Below, piece by piece: positions 40,063 to 44,682 of a DNA stretch of 45,605 bases (its first letter is position 1; each line of letters begins with the position of its first letter). The DNA is from a virus (Duplodnaviria; Heunggongvirae; Uroviricota; Caudoviricetes). Below the pieces are notes generated by a model. The model was not told the origin of the DNA and did not search any database. It saw nothing but the letters and a program-made list of their open reading frames with translations. A program made the translations under genes and the position numbers. The DNA is taken from positions 81,261 through 126,865 of the IMG/VR virus record IMGVR_UViG_2932604667_000002; one strand, 5' to 3'.

Positions 40063-40118
40063 GTCGGGTCGCTCTCCCAACACCTCCGAAAGTACCGGTA
40101 TTTAGCACGTCGATGCAA
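40063..40118 (-). promoter_or_regulatory. Repeated early cassette E5
   Basis: TTGCAT-18-TACTTT, TACCGGTA, full leader. Confidence 0.82.
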
Positions 40119-40512
40119 GCCGTGCGGGGAATTCGAACCACACCACGGTGCCGGCGCCGTCAGGCCTCCAGTCCCACCGCTGAGCGGTCCGAGCGATGAT
40201 GTCCATCCCGCGGCCGCCGGTCCGGTCCTCGCGAGGGGCACGCACGGTCGGCAGCGAGCTGGCCCCGCCGGCGTCTCGAACGGCGACGCGGAACACCTGG
40301 GCCTGGACCTCTACCTCGACGGTGAACATTCCGCCGGCGTCGCCCGAGGCGGTGTGGACGATGGCGTTGGTCGCCGCCTCTGACACGAGCAGCGTCGCCT
40401 CGTCCAGGTGGTCCAGCCCAGCCAGGGCGTCCTGAACGAAACGCCGGACGGCGGACACGGATCGGGGGTGGCCGATGAACTCTTGACGGCTGATCACAGT
40501 TGGGGGTGCCAT
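40102..40512 (-). CDS. HATPase_c anti-sigma-factor-type ATP-binding protein (RsbW-like)
   Basis: SVSAVRRFV, LLVSEAATNAIVH (N box), VRDAG (G1), GGRGMDII (G2), GTVVWFEF. Confidence 0.92.
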   Translation of the reverse strand: MAPPTVISRQEFIGHPRSVSAVRRFVQDALAGLDHLDEATLLVSEAATNAIVHTASGDAGGMFTVEVEVQAQVFRVAVRDAGGASSLPTVRAPREDRTGGRGMDIIARTAQRWDWRPDGAGTVVWFEFPARLASTC

Positions 40513-40657: not shown

Positions 40658-40810
40658 TCAACTGGAGGTCTCTCCGGAGGTGTCGGCGCTCGCGGTGCCG
40701 GTGCCCTGGCAGCCGCCGCAGGTGATGTAGCCGACCGGCGGGTTCCAGATCAGACCATCGACGCAGCCGTGGCCACAGCCGCCGCGGACGATGCGGATGA
40801 TGAAAGGCAT
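40658..40810 (-). CDS. Small DnaJ-type Zn-finger peptide (50 aa)
   Basis: GAAGGAG + ATG 40810; CGHGCVDG and CGGCQGTG. Confidence 0.65.
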   Translation of the reverse strand: MPFIIRIVRGGCGHGCVDGLIWNPPVGYITCGGCQGTGTASADTSGETSS

Positions 40811-40869
40811 GGTGAGTCTCCTTCGGTAGACCCGCATCGCTCTAACGGGTTCAAGACCACTGTAGGACT

Positions 40870-40967
40870 CGGCCAGGGATTCGTACATAAGTGCGACGTC
40901 GGGATACGAAAGACAAACTCCCAGGTTATGGCTCGACAACCACGTCGAATGTCCCCGTATTTAGCCG
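40870..40967 (+). ncRNA. Y-RNA-like element 1 (degenerate tRNA-like module)
   Basis: Closing stems CGGC/GCCG, ACAU/AUGU, CGACGU/ACGUCG around AAGUG; inner hairpins, one ending GGCUCGACAACC as in element 3. Confidence 0.5.
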
Positions 40968-40980
40968 CTACGGTGGTCGA

Positions 40981-41059
40981 GCACTCCGAAGTGCAGGCGA
41001 CGGTTACTTCACAGCGCATGTGGTTTCCAGTTCCCGACGCCGACTCGTTATCGGAGGGC
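40981..41059 (+). ncRNA. Y-RNA-like element 2 (Ro-binding stem, no tRNA module)
   Basis: CUCCGA/UCGGAG closing stem; GAAGUG.AGGCGACGG.UACUUC and CCCGACGCC shared with element 3. Confidence 0.6.
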
Positions 41060-41072
41060 ATGAGGCTTCACG

Positions 41073-41186
41073 CAGTGCCTGAAGTGAAGGCGACGGATAC
41101 TTCTTCGCAGGTTCGACTCCTGCACCTGGTTCCGCCAGGTGTGTCGACGGCTCGACAACCCGACGCCACCTAGTTGTCAGGCGCTG
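41073..41186 (+). ncRNA. yrlA: YrlA-like Y RNA, circularly permuted tRNA mimic
   Basis: 10-bp terminal stem; T arm GCAGG-UUCGACU-CCUGC, then closed acceptor hairpin ACCUGG/CCAGGU, then D arm GUCG-ACGGCU-CGAC; 41 nt upstream of TROVE gene. Confidence 0.8.
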
Positions 41187-41227
41187 ACCGCCCGCCCTCC
41201 CACCCCTGCCACACGACGAGGGCCATC

Positions 41228-42805
41228 ATGAGCAAGTTCAACAATGACGCCCTGCAGGTCGTCGCCCCCACCGGGCCGATCACCTCCGAGCAGACCGCGA
41301 CCGCCACCACCCACCAGGGCGCCCCCGGCTTCCGCCGCGACCCCCACAGCGAGCTGTTCCTGCTCGCCGTCACCAACTTCGTCTCCGAAGACACCGCCTA
41401 CGAGACCGGCACCCAGCGCAACCATCGCTTCCGCGACCTCGTCCGCCAGCTCGCCATCAGCGACCCGGACTGGCTGGCCCGGATGATCCGCTGGCTGCGC
41501 GCCGAGGCCGGCATGCGCTCCGCGGCCGTCGTCGCCGCGGCTGAGGTCGTCCACGCCCGCATCGGCGGCGAGCTGCACGGCCACTCCCGCGCCGTCGTCG
41601 CCGACGCCCTGCAGCGCGCTGACGAGCCAGGCGAGATCCTGGCCTACTGGTTCGCCACGTACGGCCGCAACCTGCCGATCCCGCTCAAGCGCGGAATCGC
41701 GGACGCGGTGTTCCGGCTCTACAACGAGCGCGCCCTCCTGAAGTACGACAACCCCACCAAGCCGATCCGGTTCGGTGACGTCATCGAGCTCGTCCAGCCG
41801 CGCTACCACGCCAAGGCGTACGGGACCTGGCGCGACAGCCTGTTCCGGTACGCCATCGAACGCCGCCACGGCCGGGGCAACCCCATCCCCGAGGGGCTCC
41901 CCGTCCTCCGGGCGCACGCCGACCTGTACTCCATCCCGGTCGAGCAGCGCCGCACCTTCCTCGACCGCGAGCACGCCGCCGAGATGCTGGCCCGCGCCGG
42001 CGTCACCTGGGAATCCCTGGCAGCCTGGCTTCAGGGGCCGATGGACGCCCGCGCCTGGGCGACGATCATCCCGTCCATGGGAGTGTTCGCTCTCGTCCGG
42101 AATCTGAGGAACTTCGACAAGGCGGGCCTGTCCGACGAGGACGCCGCCACCGTCATCACTCGGCTCACCGACGCCGCCGCCGTACGGCGCTCCCGCGTGC
42201 TCCCTCTGCGGTTCCTGGCCGCCTACCGGGCCGCCCCCTCGCTCCGCTGGGCCTGGCCGCTCCAGCAGGCCATGGACCACTCGCTCGACAACCTGCCGCT
42301 GCTCGCCGGCCGGACCCTGATCCTCGTCGACCAGTCCGGCTCCATGGACAACCGCCTGGGCCGGCAGAGCGAGCTCACCCGGGCGGACGCCGCCGCCGCG
42401 TTCGGCTCCGCCCTGGCCGTACGGGCGCAGCACGCCGACCTCTACCAGTTCGGGTACGAGCACGACCGCGTCGAGTTCCATCGCGCCGACTCCACGCTCA
42501 GGATCCTGGGCCAGTTCCGCGGCATGGGCGGCACCGAAACCGCGGCCGCGGTCCGCGCCACCTACGACGGCCACGACAGGGTCGTCATCCTCACCGACGA
42601 GCAGGCGAACGGCGGCTGGGGAGGAGCGAACCCGACCATGCTCGTCCCGGACAACATCCCGGTCTACACCTGGAACCTGGCCGGATACGAGCACGGCCAC
42701 GGCGCCGACGGCCCGAACCGCTACACCTTCGGCGGCCTGTCAGACAAGGGCTTCGAGATGATCCCGCTGCTGGAGCGCGGCGTCCAGGGCGACTGGCCGT
42801 TCTGA
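41228..42805 (+). CDS. rsr: Ro60/TROVE domain RNA-binding protein with vWA domain
   Basis: ELFLLAV.NF..E..YE, ALVRNLRNFD, RSRVLPLRFLAAY, TLILVDQSGSM (MIDAS), GGTET, DRVVILTDEQ, WNLAGY. Confidence 0.95.
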   Translation: MSKFNNDALQVVAPTGPITSEQTATATTHQGAPGFRRDPHSELFLLAVTNFVSEDTAYETGTQRNHRFRDLVRQLAISDPDWLARMIRWLRAEAGMRSAAVVAAAEVVHARIGGELHGHSRAVVADALQRADEPGEILAYWFATYGRNLPIPLKRGIADAVFRLYNERALLKYDNPTKPIRFGDVIELVQPRYHAKAYGTWRDSLFRYAIERRHGRGNPIPEGLPVLRAHADLYSIPVEQRRTFLDREHAAEMLARAGVTWESLAAWLQGPMDARAWATIIPSMGVFALVRNLRNFDKAGLSDEDAATVITRLTDAAAVRRSRVLPLRFLAAYRAAPSLRWAWPLQQAMDHSLDNLPLLAGRTLILVDQSGSMDNRLGRQSELTRADAAAAFGSALAVRAQHADLYQFGYEHDRVEFHRADSTLRILGQFRGMGGTETAAAVRATYDGHDRVVILTDEQANGGWGGANPTMLVPDNIPVYTWNLAGYEHGHGADGPNRYTFGGLSDKGFEMIPLLERGVQGDWPF

Positions 42806-42815
42806 ACACAAGAGA

Positions 42816-42843
42816 AGGCCCGGCGGACCAGGCCGCCGGGCCT
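42816..42843. terminator. Hairpin terminator between convergent TROVE and toxin genes
   Basis: 11-bp stem AGGCCCGGCGG/CCGCCGGGCCT. Confidence 0.7.
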
Positions 42844-42858
42844 CCCCTGCAACTTGCT

Positions 42859-43206
42859 CTACTCGCCGTCAGCGAAGCTGAACGCCGCCCGTACAGCGGC
42901 ACGCAACCGCTTCCGAGCGTCGGGATCGGTGATCTCACCGACCTTCTCTCCCAGCCGAGACAGGGAGATCGTCGACAGGTAGTCCATCAACGCGAAACCC
43001 TCATCACCGAGGGGCGTGACGAACAGCAGGGACGTGGTTCGCACGTCCGGCTCCAGCTCCACCACGATCACGGCGTTGCCGACGACCGTGTGGAAAAGAC
43101 GACTGGACACGACAACTCGCCGCACCCACCGCCCGTCGTATTCGCGCCGCGCCCGGAAGATCTCACCGAACGCCGGGGGAGAGGCGCGTCTGGACGGATC
43201 ACTCAC
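42859..43206 (-). CDS. PemK/MazF-like toxin
   Basis: GEIF..., RRVVVSS...NAVIVV, ALMDYLSTISLSRLGEKVGEI, RLRAAVR follow the PemK fold pattern. Confidence 0.68.
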   Translation of the reverse strand: MSDPSRRASPPAFGEIFRARREYDGRWVRRVVVSSRLFHTVVGNAVIVVELEPDVRTTSLLFVTPLGDEGFALMDYLSTISLSRLGEKVGEITDPDARKRLRAAVRAAFSFADGE

Positions 43207-43463
43207 GCGGCGCCACGCACCTCGCGAGCTCCCCGGTCCGCGGCCTCCTCAGCGAGCCGGATCTTCTCGGCCCGCCTGCCCGTACGGCCCAGCCGTTCCA
43301 TCTCCTCCTGGAACGTGGGGGCGTCGTGCTCGGCGATGGCCTGCATCGCCGCTCGGTCGTAGAACTCCGACGGTGATACGCCGATGGCCTCGGCCACCCG
43401 CGCGACCTGCTCACGAACCGACGCCTGGAGGTACAGCGTCGCTTTCTCCTTCTCGCCGCTCAT
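43203..43463 (-). CDS. Ribbon-helix-helix antitoxin
   Basis: KATLYLQASVREQVARVAEAIGVSPSEFYDRAA; GTGA coupling with toxin. Confidence 0.75.
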   Translation of the reverse strand: MSGEKEKATLYLQASVREQVARVAEAIGVSPSEFYDRAAMQAIAEHDAPTFQEEMERLGRTGRRAEKIRLAEEAADRGAREVRGAA

Positions 43464-43512
43464 ACCGCCAAAATATACGTACAGCCGCCACTGCGCAGTA
43501 GGGATCGGCGCC

Positions 43513-44682
43513 CTATCCGAAGAACACACGCTGCCGGGGCGCGGTCTCGACGCTGGCCCATGCCTTAGCGAAGCCAGGGCCGACCTTGTCGGCGACCACG
43601 GCGGGGGCTGGCACTAAGGCGTGCCAGGCGCTGGGGAAGTACACGTTGAGGCGAGACAGCATGGCCCGTCGATGCCCGCCGTCACGATCGACCATGACGT
43701 CGAGTTCGACGGCCTGCTGCTGCAGCTCGGCGAGCATCTCCGCGCGCGTGCCCTCCGCCAGGCGAACCACGCTGCGGACCGCGTTGGCCGGCCGGGTGAT
43801 GTCGTCCTCACGGGCACGGAACACCCGGCGCACGTCGTACAGCGCCCACGGCTGGGCGTCGAGGTGACGCTCGAACTGCTCCAGCAGGTCACGTGAGCCC
43901 GGGGTGTTGGCGAGCAGGTCGTACAGCCGCTCACCGGCGATCAGCCCCTGCTTCGGGTTGAGCGCGACCGCGACGTGCTCCATCAGCAGCGCCTGCATGG
44001 CCTCGCCGGGGTTGGCCAGGTACCGCGGAATGGTCCGCTCCTTGCCCGCCTGGGTGGTCAGGGCGAAGGGACAGAAGACACACGCGCTCTTGATCCACGC
44101 CACGCCGAGCTGGGCCAGGATGTAGTGCTCACATGTGAGCCTGTCCCAACCCCACTCGATCAGGGGGTAGACCGGCATCCGGCCCGGCACCTTCCCCTCG
44201 CGCTGGTCCCGGTGCATCCTCTTGACCTCGCCAGCCTCGAACCCGACGGCGTGGATGAACGGCTCGCCCTGGGTGTGCTGCGCGATCCACTGGTCGAGGA
44301 CCCAGCCTTTGAACTGCAGGCTGCACAGCCGCTTCCCGCCCGTCTGGGGGACGGTGCCGATGGTGAGCATGTCCTTGGCCAGGGTGTAGCTGCCGGAGAT
44401 GTGGCACCGGCTCGGTGAGCGGGTGTCGGACAGTACGACGATCCCGTCTGTGTCCGACTCGCCGGCGCGGGCGACCTGGACCGTGCGCACACCGCGCGCT
44501 GTGAGCAGGGGATAGATGTGCCGGTCGACCAGGTCGCCGGTCTTGTCCCACTCGCCTCCGGTCTGGGCGGTGATGACGACGAGGTCCTTCAGGTCGCAGG
44601 GGCAGGTCTCGGGCTCCAGCAGCCAGCGGAGCAGGATCGCGGTGCTGTCGACGCCGAGGCCGTACGAGAGGATGACCTTCAT
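43513..44682 (-). CDS. PP-loop / PAPS-reductase-like (adenine nucleotide alpha hydrolase) protein
   Basis: ILSYGLGVDST PP-loop, RLCSLQFKG, YPLIEWGWDR..C, KSACVFCPF. Confidence 0.78.
   Translation of the reverse strand: MKVILSYGLGVDSTAILLRWLLEPETCPCDLKDLVVITAQTGGEWDKTGDLVDRHIYPLLTARGVRTVQVARAGESDTDGIVVLSDTRSPSRCHISGSYTLAKDMLTIGTVPQTGGKRLCSLQFKGWVLDQWIAQHTQGEPFIHAVGFEAGEVKRMHRDQREGKVPGRMPVYPLIEWGWDRLTCEHYILAQLGVAWIKSACVFCPFALTTQAGKERTIPRYLANPGEAMQALLMEHVAVALNPKQGLIAGERLYDLLANTPGSRDLLEQFERHLDAQPWALYDVRRVFRAREDDITRPANAVRSVVRLAEGTRAEMLAELQQQAVELDVMVDRDGGHRRAMLSRLNVYFPSAWHALVPAPAVVADKVGPGFAKAWASVETAPRQRVFFG

What the first reader, a model, noticed from the sequence alone, without database searches (positions are those of the whole stretch)
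40870..42805. Phage Ro60 gene preceded by three different tandem Y-RNA-like elements
Seen: 41073-41186 folds by eye into a circularly permuted tRNA (T arm, closed acceptor hairpin, D arm) on a long terminal stem. 40981-41059 repeats the same stem sequences (GAAGUG.AGGCGACGG.UACUUC / CCCGACGCC) but has a short loop instead of the tRNA module. 40870-40967 keeps AAGUG, a closing stem and the GGCUCGACAACC D-arm-like tail. Known: Ro60/Rsr binds Y RNAs, YrlA RNAs are permuted tRNA mimics, and Ro/YrlA occur in some phages. Inference: one Ro60 loaded with three interchangeable RNA adaptors, giving a modular RNP that could decoy tRNA-targeting defence nucleases or recruit different RNases/ligases during infection.
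Basis: partly seen in the sequence, partly recalled or inferred. Interest (0 to 1): 0.85.

Follow-up and report, generated by a model that had tools for sequence, protein, structure and literature searches.

The report
Phage Ro60 with two Y RNAs
An actinomycete phage carries a Ro60 RNA-binding protein gene preceded by two, not three, partner Y RNA genes, which is the usual layout, but both RNAs and the protein's RNA-binding segment carry a rare docking-site variant seen so far only in phage records.

Summary
Partly confirmed. The window is part of a 126.9-kb actinophage record. It holds an intact Ro60/Rsr gene (41228-42805).

- **Elements 2 and 3 are real Y RNAs.** Element 2 (40980-41059) is a short stem-only form. 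Element 3 (41074-41186) is a YrlA-type form with a permuted tRNA mimic. A covariance model built without element 3 finds it at 47 bits. The same model finds about 260 elements just upstream of rsr, on its strand, in 162 related loci, with strong covariation.
- **The layout is ordinary.** "Short + long + rsr" is the commonest layout there. It is in print (Chen 2014; Thermus phage phiLo 2025), and this scan has met such arrays many times on other DNA.
- **Element 1 (40870-40967) is not supported.** It gets no model hit and no fold signal, and it lacks the closing stem and the invariant UACUUC. It lies upstream of the predicted start, in the leftward gene's promoter region. Only a 12-nt repeat links it to element 3.
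- **New here.** Both Y RNAs carry a rare docking-loop variant (AAGUG/GUUGU instead of GUGCG/GAUCU). In 10 of 10 such loci, all from viral records, Rsr has I151, no His190 and R202, against 0 to 3 of 153 others. These residues align with the helices that contact Y RNA in phiLo Ro60.

No RNA data exist, so function is inferred.

The parts
40969..40974 (+). -10-like hexamer TACGGT. It predicts a rightward transcription start near 40980, at the first base of the short Y RNA.
   Evidence: A TAnnnT hexamer sits about 16-24 nt before the CGAA anchor of the first Y RNA in 14 of the 22 rows the script listed, including the window. An AGCAC-type start follows it in the window, L022, L056 and L075. This is inference; no mapping data exist.
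40980..41059 (+). It has a 9-bp terminal helix, the internal loop AAGUGCA / GACUCGUUA, an 8-bp second helix with a central A-A mismatch, UACUUC, and a small apical loop.
   Evidence: Model R1 gives 72 bits (this element was in the training set). Homologous elements at the same place in 4 relatives show compensatory changes.
41074..41186 (+). It has the same docking stem and carries a permuted tRNA mimic.
   Evidence: R1 gives 47.4 bits, E 1e-7, and this element was not in the training set. Rfam YrlA matches the full model at 23.7 bits, E 0.012, below the gathering score of 69. Fold z-score is -3.9. Compact relatives with the same module order are L010 and L011.
41107..41123 (+). T-arm mimic: a 5-bp stem with loop UUCGACU.
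   Evidence: Aligned to the T arm of Rfam YrlA and present in the MFE fold.
41124..41140 (+). Closed 7-bp acceptor-stem mimic with loop UCC. A possible RNase P and CCA-addition site lies at 41133/41134, by analogy with M. smegmatis YrlA.
   Evidence: Fold. The analogy is from PMC4201824. Cleavage itself is inferred, not shown.
41143..41156 (+). D-arm mimic: GUCG / CGAC with loop ACGGCU.
   Evidence: Aligned to the D arm of Rfam YrlA and present in the fold.
41228..42805 (+). rsr, encoding a 525-aa Ro60 orthologue (TROVE + vWA with MIDAS residues D368, S370, S372, T436, D457).
   Evidence: Pfam TROVE E 7e-13. phrog_850 E 1e-53. PDB 9KOP/9L5Y (Thermus phage phiLo Ro60) E 8.5e-36. The MIDAS residues sit at invariant alignment columns.
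41633..41857 (+). Codons 136-210 of rsr, the predicted Y-RNA-contacting segment. It carries the class-A signature: I151, Q190, Y193, Y198-G199-T200, R202, D203.
   Evidence: Mapping onto phiLo Ro60 residues R137, K141, K142 and R178 comes from the alignment and PMC12135203.
42817..42834 (.). GC-rich hairpin after the rsr stop codon, a likely terminator shared with the convergent gene.
40870..40967 (.). It is not a Y RNA. It is divergent promoter DNA for the leftward genes.
40942..40977 (-). Decayed copy of the phage's reiterated early promoter/operator box (GCTAAATACgGGgACATTC against the consensus TTAAATACCGGTACATTC).
   Evidence: nhmmer with a profile of 32 cassettes from the same genome gives E 3e-4.
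40830..40864 (-). Leftward -10 TACAGT (40864-40859) and a leader hairpin with the cassette's GAGCGA loop (40850-40830). They lie ahead of the 50-aa CxxCxGxG gene at 40810-40661.
40930..40941 (+). 12-mer GGCTCGACAACC, identical to 41149-41160 in the D-arm region of the long Y RNA. It also forms an 11-nt inverted repeat with 40972-40982.
   Evidence: It is unexplained.

Best explanation
The 417-nt gap between a leftward Zn-finger gene and rsr holds one rightward unit. In order it has a -10-like TACGGT, a short stem-only Y RNA (40980-41059), a 112-nt YrlA-type Y RNA (41074-41186), rsr, and a terminator hairpin. The top of the long RNA is a circularly permuted tRNA mimic.

Shown here: both RNAs have the family's covarying docking stem, in the family's standard place and order. 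The protein is an intact Ro60 orthologue.

Inferred from M. smegmatis, D. radiodurans, Salmonella and Thermus phage phiLo: the RNAs are cut out of one precursor with rsr. Each docks by its 5'/3' stem on the outside of the Rsr ring. Each then acts as an adaptor or gate that couples Rsr to host RNA enzymes; PNPase is the documented partner. The tRNA-like head is recognised by tRNA enzymes.

Element 1 is not part of this unit. It lies upstream of the predicted start and consists of the leftward gene's promoter region plus a decayed copy of the phage's reiterated promoter/operator box.

The locus belongs to a minority class-A docking variant. Both strands of the internal loop differ in both RNAs, and residues 151, 190 and 202 of Rsr differ together. 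This most likely marks an altered RNA-protein recognition pair.
For: - Stem model R1 hits 40980-41059 (72 bits) and 41074-41185 (47 bits; not in the training set). It hits nothing else in the 126.9-kb record above 16.1 bits (the next-best scores are E 0.36 and 0.84).
- Of the 267 hits at E<=1 in 162 rsr loci (which include the window's own two and two reverse-strand echoes of forward hits), 261 lie upstream of rsr on its strand.
- Covariation on 125 aligned hits: 90.8% of cells paired; score 0.505 against 0.146 in shuffles and at most 0.109 when slid.
- Layout: 40 of 83 sources (82 viral loci plus the window) have exactly two elements, typically a short one (about 72-78 nt) followed by a long one with a T loop.
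- Rfam YrlA aligns over its full length to element 3.
- Protein.
- Published parallels: at least two Y RNAs per species, processed from one precursor upstream of rsr (PMC4201824). phiLo Ro60 binds two upstream Yrl RNAs and host PNPase (PMC12135203).
- Element 1.
- Class A.
Against: - There is no expression, processing or binding datum for this phage.
- Rfam's own YrlA threshold is not reached (23.7 bits against 69).
- Element 2 alone does not fold better than shuffles (z -1.25).
- The promoter call rests on a conserved -10-like hexamer only. The consensus promoter scan found none.
- The exact 12-mer shared by elements 1 and 3 (about 5-10 per 1000 by shuffles) is not explained by the promoter reading. 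Element 1 could be a decayed paralogue.
- The class-A RNA-protein coupling could be physical linkage. Monophyly of class A in codons 1-135 is not rejected (p-AU 0.67), so one recombination tract covering the Y RNAs and the 5' 630 nt of rsr is possible.
Confidence: 0.8

Rival explanations
1. Element 1 is a decayed paralogue of the long Y RNA. An old duplicate lost its T arm, its acceptor hairpin and its Ro-docking stem, and was later overlaid by promoter sequences. It is now non-functional as a Y RNA.
For: The exact 12-mer GGCTCGACAACC is shared in collinear position, after AAGUG...CGACG...GAUAC and before a CGACG-like 3' strand. The 12-mer is rarer than chance: 5-10 of 1000 shuffles, and only two exact copies in the whole window. 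Loci with 3-4 tandem Y RNAs exist.
Against: Outside the 12-mer, the alignment to elements 2 and 3 is at chance level. The 3' third of element 1 is better explained as a copy of the promoter/operator cassette on the other strand. No relative conserves this stretch.
Confidence: 0.13
2. One reading: three functional, interchangeable Y-RNA adaptors, with element 1 as a divergent third Rsr ligand.
For: Element 1 has AAGUG and a perfect 6-bp helix, CGACGU / ACGUCG, in the position of helix 2. Arrays of 3-4 Y RNAs occur in 7 of 83 sources.
Against: It gets no hit with the stem model trained on the same AAGUG subclass, with filters off and E up to 10. It lacks a terminal helix next to AAGUG, the 3' GUU(G/A)UC and UACUUC (at least 80% conserved at every position across the 125 aligned elements). 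Its fold z-score is -0.88. It lies upstream of the conserved -10 position.
Confidence: 0.05
3. The class-A signature is only a linked recombination module. The Y RNAs and the N-terminal 210 codons were inherited together from one ancestor and joined to different 3' halves. There is no change in recognition specificity.
For: The segment 136-210 tree puts all 10 class-A proteins in one clade (99 SH-aLRT). The rest of the protein rejects that clade (p-AU 2e-117). Codons 1-135 do not reject it. The RNAs lie directly 5' of the gene.
Against: The differences fall on the two strands of the docking loop and on residues beside those shown to contact Y RNA in phiLo Ro60. His190 is otherwise invariant: 150 of 153 relatives and phiLo. 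In pairwise identity, codons 1-135 follow the C-terminal relationships, not the class.
Confidence: 0.35

Closest known systems
Thermus phage phiLo Ro60 with Yrl1 and Yrl2 (PMC12135203; PDB 9KOP, 9L5Y)
   Same: A phage-encoded Ro60 with two Y-RNA-like genes directly upstream. It is the best solved-structure match of the window's protein (E 8.5e-36). The docking stem has a CGAA-type motif. The RNA lies by helices alpha8 and alpha10, which align with the window's residues 150-155 and 190-192.
   Different: phiLo keeps the His that is Gln190 here, and has Ser where the window has Ile151. Its RNAs are simple hairpins with no tRNA-like module. The host phylum differs. Nothing has been tested biochemically for the window's system.
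Mycobacterium smegmatis YrlA/YrlB-Rsr and mycobacteriophage YrlAs (Chen et al. 2014, PMC4201824; Rfam RF02553)
   Same: An actinobacterial locus with two Y RNAs upstream of rsr on one precursor. One is a permuted tRNA mimic with a 7-bp acceptor stem (an RNase P and CCA-adding substrate in M. smegmatis). The other is a stem-loop form.
   Different: The order here is short then long. The Rfam YrlA model scores only 23.7 bits. The docking loop is the AAGUG/GUUGU variant.
Class-B Y RNA pairs of Streptomyces, Actinomadura, Nonomuraea, Microtetraspora and most actinophage rsr loci
   Same: Same layout, same helices, same UACUUC motif. The proteins are 55-62% identical.
   Different: The loop motifs are GUGCG / GAUCU. 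Rsr has K/Q151, H190 and Q202.

Membership tests
Ro60 / Rsr (TROVE + vWA ring protein) | TROVE domain | tested here: met
   Pfam PF05731 E 6.7e-13, 49 bits against a cut-off of 23. phrog_850 E 1e-53 over residues 1-516.
Ro60 / Rsr (TROVE + vWA ring protein) | C-terminal vWA domain with MIDAS residues (DxSxS, T, D) | tested here: met
   D368, S370, S372, T436 and D457 sit at invariant columns of 25 orthologues. The Pfam VWA_2 match itself is below its cut-off (20.8 bits against 27).
Ro60 / Rsr (TROVE + vWA ring protein) | Sequence relationship to a Ro60 of solved ring structure | tested here: met
   9KOP/9L5Y E 8.5e-36 and 2NVO E 2e-4. At profile level, 1YVP E 4.5e-8. No fold was predicted here.
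Ro60 / Rsr (TROVE + vWA ring protein) | Binds Y RNA | not testable with these tools
   Needs a gel shift or RIP.
NCBIfam Rsr equivalog NF041674 | Score above the curated cut-off | tested here: not met
   24.6 bits against 900. The window's protein is an orthologue of a different sub-lineage from the one that model represents.
YrlA (Rfam RF02553), element 3 | Rfam gathering score | tested here: not met
   23.7 bits against 69, E 0.012, full-length alignment. None of 20 related loci reached it either, so the model under-reaches in this clade.
YrlA (Rfam RF02553), element 3 | Encoded within 4 kb of rsr (criterion of Chen 2014) | tested here: met
   It ends 42 nt before the rsr ATG.
YrlA (Rfam RF02553), element 3 | Terminal docking stem plus a permuted tRNA-like domain (T arm, closed acceptor-like hairpin, D arm) | tested here: met
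.
YrlA (Rfam RF02553), element 3 | GNCGAAN0-1G motif on the 5' strand | tested here: inconclusive
   Element 3 reads CCUGAAGUG (U for C). Element 2 reads CUCCGAAGUG (the CGAAG core is present; the upstream G is not).
Bacterial Y RNA in general, element 2 | 5' and 3' ends form a conserved, covarying helix with an internal loop, next to rsr | tested here: met
Bacterial Y RNA in general, element 1 | The same docking stem | tested here: not met
   No hit with filters off. Similarity is at chance level apart from one 12-mer.
Reiterated early promoter/operator-leader cassette of this phage (3' part of element 1, minus strand) | TTGCCA, about 18 nt, TAAATACCGGTAC(A/T)TT, then a GAGCGA-loop hairpin | tested here: inconclusive
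   Only the operator/-10 part matches (nhmmer E 3e-4, 10 bits). The -35 and the hairpin are degenerate.

The most novel reading that the evidence does not exclude
Class-A Ro60/Y-RNA pairs are a recognition system orthogonal to the host's class-B Ro60/Y RNAs. By changing both strands of the docking loop in every Y RNA, together with residues 151, 190 and 202 on the RNA-binding helices, some actinophages run a private Ro RNP. The host Rsr cannot capture its RNAs, and host Y RNAs cannot titrate its protein.
Probability: 0.3. Interest if true: 0.65.

Novelty: new variant of a known kind. Interest (0 to 1): 0.42.

Why it matters
As first described, this is one more phage Ro60 with Y RNAs, a kind already in print and met often in this scan.

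What could matter is the natural specificity switch. Across 163 loci, a five-base change on each strand of the Y-RNA docking loop goes with three residue changes in Rsr, without exception. One of those residues is a histidine that is otherwise invariant. They sit beside the residues shown to contact Y RNA in the only phage Ro60 structure.

That gives a short, directly testable list of contacts for how Ro60 reads its RNA. It also raises the question of whether phages insulate their Ro particle from the host's.

Tried and rejected
- **Rfam at gathering thresholds.** Nothing in the window. No YrlA in 20 related loci.
- **ARAGORN on the window.** No tRNA genes.
- **blastn of the whole intergenic region against 162 loci.** Only parts of elements 2 and 3 matched; nothing matched element 1.
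- **First regex scan for AAGUG...GUUG elements.** Too narrow, with 6 loci only. Replaced by the covariance model.
- **Public sequencing runs.** No RNA holder listed, and one DNA run that may be the source sample, so expression could not be examined.
- **GAAGU / ACUUC as a conserved local pairing.** Rejected. UACUUC stays invariant when the 5' motif changes to GUGCG.
- **Mapping His190 onto vertebrate Ro60 His187** (H187S loses Y RNA binding, PMC11277228). Profile searches aligned only the C-terminal half of 1YVP, so the correspondence is untested.
- **Two reviews** (PMC10870794, PMC6542706) are not held.
- **Recombination against co-evolution.** The tree of codons 1-135 is ambiguous. Y-RNA backbone identities are all 68-82% and do not discriminate.
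- **Class A in cellular genomes.** A pattern scan of 401 Actinomycetes genomes gave two hits (as many as the reversed-pattern control). Both are a third type, with a different 3' strand and Arg at position 190.
- **RtcB.** Not found in the record.
- **Six IMG/VR loci** with the class-A 5' motif but no rsr in the DNA held were not followed.
Full report
**Context.** The window is the last 45.6 kb of a 126,865-bp IMG/VR provirus record of about 70% G+C. It encodes a portal, a large terminase, a head protease and a minor tail protein. In its right part it encodes DnaN, an anti-sigma-like ATPase and small early-type genes. Earlier notes of this scan call the element a 152-kb phage-plasmid of Microtetraspora fusca and describe a promoter-plus-leader-hairpin cassette repeated about 25-30 times. 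I did not verify the host name. I did recover 32 copies of the cassette myself. The record also holds 29-32 tRNA genes near its start and no RtcB.

**The protein.** The ORF 41228-42805 (+) gives 525 aa with a TROVE domain (Pfam E 7e-13). It matches PHROG 850 over its whole length (E 1e-53). The MIDAS residues of the vWA domain fall at invariant columns. Its best solved relative is the Ro60 of Thermus phage phiLo (9KOP/9L5Y, E 8.5e-36). Its nearest sequences overall are cellular Rsr proteins of Thermomonosporaceae and Streptosporangiaceae, at about 60% identity. The gene is intact and is followed by a terminator-like hairpin at 42817-42834.

**Elements 2 and 3 are Y RNAs.**
- Rfam at gathering thresholds finds nothing in the window.
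- With E-value thresholds, the only relevant hit is YrlA over its full model length at 41076-41186. It scores 23.7 bits, far below the gathering score of 69.
- Element 3 folds much better than shuffles (z -3.9). Elements 1 and 2 do not.
- I fetched 82 viral and 80 cellular loci encoding relatives of the protein, each with 1.5 kb of flank.
- Four viral loci share a 25-nt block with element 2.
- I aligned element 2 with four short elements from three of those loci (L022, L056, L075). This gave a consensus of two helices, with compensatory changes in 7 of 17 pairs. I built covariance model R1 from that alignment.
- R1 finds element 3, which was not in the training set, at 47.4 bits (E 1e-7). It finds nothing else in the window or in the whole record above 16.1 bits (next-best E 0.36 and 0.84).
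- In the 162 loci it finds 144 and 121 elements at E<=1 (one search's total of 146 includes the window's own two). Leaving aside those two and two reverse-strand echoes of forward hits, 261 of 263 lie on the rsr strand upstream of rsr. Chance hits would not show that placement.
- On 125 aligned viral elements, 90.8% of cells pair. The covariation score is 0.505, against 0.146 for shuffles and at most 0.109 for slid partners. That alignment was fitted to the model, which favours the structure.

**The layout is the ordinary one.** At E<=0.05, 40 of 83 sources (82 viral loci plus the window) have exactly two elements, and 7 have three or four. The usual order is a short element of about 72-78 nt with no T loop, a spacer of about 12 nt, a long element of about 135-145 nt with a GGUUCGA T loop, about 40 nt, then rsr. 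Cellular loci of Streptomyces, Kitasatospora, Actinomadura and Nonomuraea look the same. The window fits this pattern: 80 nt, a 14-nt spacer, 112 nt, then 42 nt to the ATG. Its long element is a compact form, and relatives with the same module order exist (L010, L011).

In print, Chen et al. 2014 report at least two Y RNAs per species, including M. smegmatis YrlA and YrlB upstream of rsr on one precursor, and YrlAs in most phage genomes they searched. The phiLo study shows a phage Ro60 binding two upstream Yrl RNAs and assembling with host PNPase. This scan has also reported tandem Y-RNA arrays beside phage Ro60 genes on other DNA several times.

**The tRNA-like head of element 3.**
- The T arm (41107-41123) has the loop UUCGACU.
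- The next hairpin (41124-41140) has 7 pairs and the loop UCC.
- After two bases comes a D arm (41143-41156) whose loop contains GG.
[quoted passage not shown] Cleavage between 41133 and 41134 would leave ...UCC, one A short of a CCA end. This is inference.

**Element 1 is not supported.**
- With filters off and E up to 10, R1 gives nothing between 40811 and 40979 except a 1.5-bit hit on an unrelated hairpin. R1 was trained on exactly the AAGUG subclass.
- Element 1 has AAGUG, but no helix strand abuts it. It lacks the 3' GUU(G/A)UC and the UACUUC motif, which is at least 80% conserved at every position across the 125 aligned elements.
- Its local alignment to element 2 is no better than shuffles (721 of 1000). 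Its alignment to element 3 consists only of the 12-mer GGCTCGACAACC (5-10 of 1000 shuffles).
- No related locus conserves the stretch.
- On the minus strand, 40977-40942 matches the operator/-10 part of the phage's reiterated cassette (nhmmer E 3e-4).
- The leftward 50-aa CxxCxGxG gene (40810-40661) has its own -10, TACAGT (40864-40859). It also has a leader hairpin carrying the cassette's GAGCGA loop (40850-40830).
- On the plus strand, TACGGT (40969-40974) occupies the position where 14 of the 22 rows the script listed (window included) have a TAnnnT hexamer before their first Y RNA. In the window and three close relatives (L022, L056, L075) an AGCAC-type start follows it. So the Y-RNA/rsr transcript probably starts near 40980, downstream of element 1.
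- The 12-mer stays unexplained, as does its 11-nt inverted repeat with 40972-40982, which brackets the cassette remnant. A decayed Y-RNA paralogue is the main rival reading.

**A docking-site variant that co-varies with the protein.**
- Most elements read CCCG-GUGCG-(C/A)AGG on the 5' strand and GAUCU-CGGG on the 3' strand. I call this class B. It is found in 77 of 80 cellular and 55 of 82 viral loci.
- The window's two RNAs, and those of L022, L056, L060 and L075, read CC(C/U)G-AAGUG-nAGG and GUU(G/A)U-C(G/A)GG. I call this class A.
- Within a locus, all the Y RNAs share the class. L022 and its protein-level sister L019 have Y-RNA regions that align along their whole length (74-79% identical), yet both RNAs differ on both loop strands.
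- Comparing Rsr proteins, all class-A proteins have Ile151, Gln/Asn190 and Arg202. The 130 class-B proteins have Lys/Gln151, His190 in 130 of 130, and Gln202 in 128.
- As an independent sample, I scanned IMG/VR for the RNA motif alone. Five further loci with an adjacent rsr all carry the protein signature.
- Totals: 10 of 10 class-A loci against 0 to 3 of 153 others, depending on the residue (0 with Ile151; 3 without His190, all Arg; at most 3 with Arg202).
- On a tree built without codons 136-210, the class needs six changes, and the AU test rejects a single clade (delta lnL 353, p 2e-117). Six independent contrasts all agree for each of the three residues (sign test p 0.03).
- The 73-column tree of codons 136-210 alone puts all ten class-A proteins in one clade (99 SH-aLRT).
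- Codons 1-135 are ambiguous, and the RNA backbones do not discriminate. I therefore cannot separate co-evolution from a recombining 5' module made of the Y RNAs plus the RNA-binding part of rsr.

**Where the residues sit.** I used the profile alignment to 9KOP, with chain index minus 9 as residue number. All eight residues named in the paper check under this numbering.

| phiLo Ro60 residue | Window position |
|---|---|
| R137 | 150 |
| K141, K142 | 154, 155 |
| H176 | 190 |
| R178 | 192 |

The paper places the CGAA stem-bulge of Yrl2 beside helices alpha8 and alpha10. It reports that R137A, K142S, R178A and K193A weaken binding three- to 4.5-fold. So the class-specific residues flank experimentally supported contact residues. 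A mouse Ro60 H187S mutant is reported to lose Y RNA binding. Whether that His corresponds to His190 could not be tested.

**Distribution.** All ten class-A loci come from viral records. Class A was not found in the 80 cellular rsr loci. It was also not found in a pattern scan of 401 sampled Actinomycetes genomes. The two hits there are a third type, with a different 3' strand and Arg at position 190. Streptosporangiales genomes sampled here are class B: a Microtetraspora MAG, Streptosporangium, Nonomuraea and Actinomadura. These are samples, so class A is "not found in those searched", not absent.

**Verdict.** The locus is a new member of a described kind, in the family's standard layout. The decoy idea has no support in the sequence. 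The added value is the class-A docking variant and its strict coupling to the RNA-binding segment of Rsr. I could not find this described in the papers held or in earlier notes of this scan. It is a sequence correlation with a plausible structural basis, not a shown change of specificity.

Noticed in passing
L060:1142-1286 (IMGVR_UViG_3300021420_000016): One of three tandem class-A Y RNAs encloses a complete, unpermuted tRNA-shaped body inside the Ro-docking stem. Rfam tRNA scores 44 bits at 1189-1260, and ARAGORN reports a 2-nt 'anticodon'. Eight ordinary tRNA genes lie directly upstream.
   Followed up: partly
window 42862-43206 (-) and 43206-43529 (-): A 115-aa ORF convergent with rsr has a weak PemK/MazF-like match (Pfam E 0.003, below cut-off). 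A 108-aa ORF precedes it and abuts it, as in a toxin-antitoxin pair. NCBIfam and PHROGs gave nothing.
   Followed up: partly
window 40105-40512 (-): A 136-aa HATPase_c_2 protein resembling anti-sigma factors of the SpoIIAB/RsbW type (Pfam E 1e-15). It lies in the leftward operon that diverges from the Y-RNA/rsr unit.
   Followed up: no
window 40661-40810 (-): A 50-aa ORF with CGHGC and CGGCQGTG motifs (DnaJ-like zinc-finger pattern). It has no family match. Its leader hairpin is a variant (loop UUAGAGCGAUG) of the phage's reiterated GAGCGA hairpin.
   Followed up: partly
window 40931-40941 with 40972-40982: An 11-nt inverted repeat (10 of 11 complementary) brackets the decayed promoter/operator box. 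One arm is part of the 12-mer shared with the long Y RNA. Its meaning is unknown.
   Followed up: no
Alignment A3 (125 Y RNAs of viral loci): The hexamer UACUUC just after helix 2 is highly conserved (each position at least 80%, invariant in the rows inspected) in both docking classes and in short and long forms. It has no conserved pairing partner, so it is a candidate protein-contact or tertiary motif.
   Followed up: partly
L192 and L193 (two cellular Actinomycetes genomes): A third docking type, GUACCGAAGUGCAGG ... GGUUCUCGGUAC, sits on a YrlA-like RNA upstream of a more divergent Rsr that has Arg at the position of His190.
   Followed up: partly
G000:C1:932-6666 (same record, outside the window): An array of 29-32 tRNA genes. 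In L060 such an array runs straight into the Y RNAs and rsr. In this record the two lie at opposite ends.
   Followed up: no
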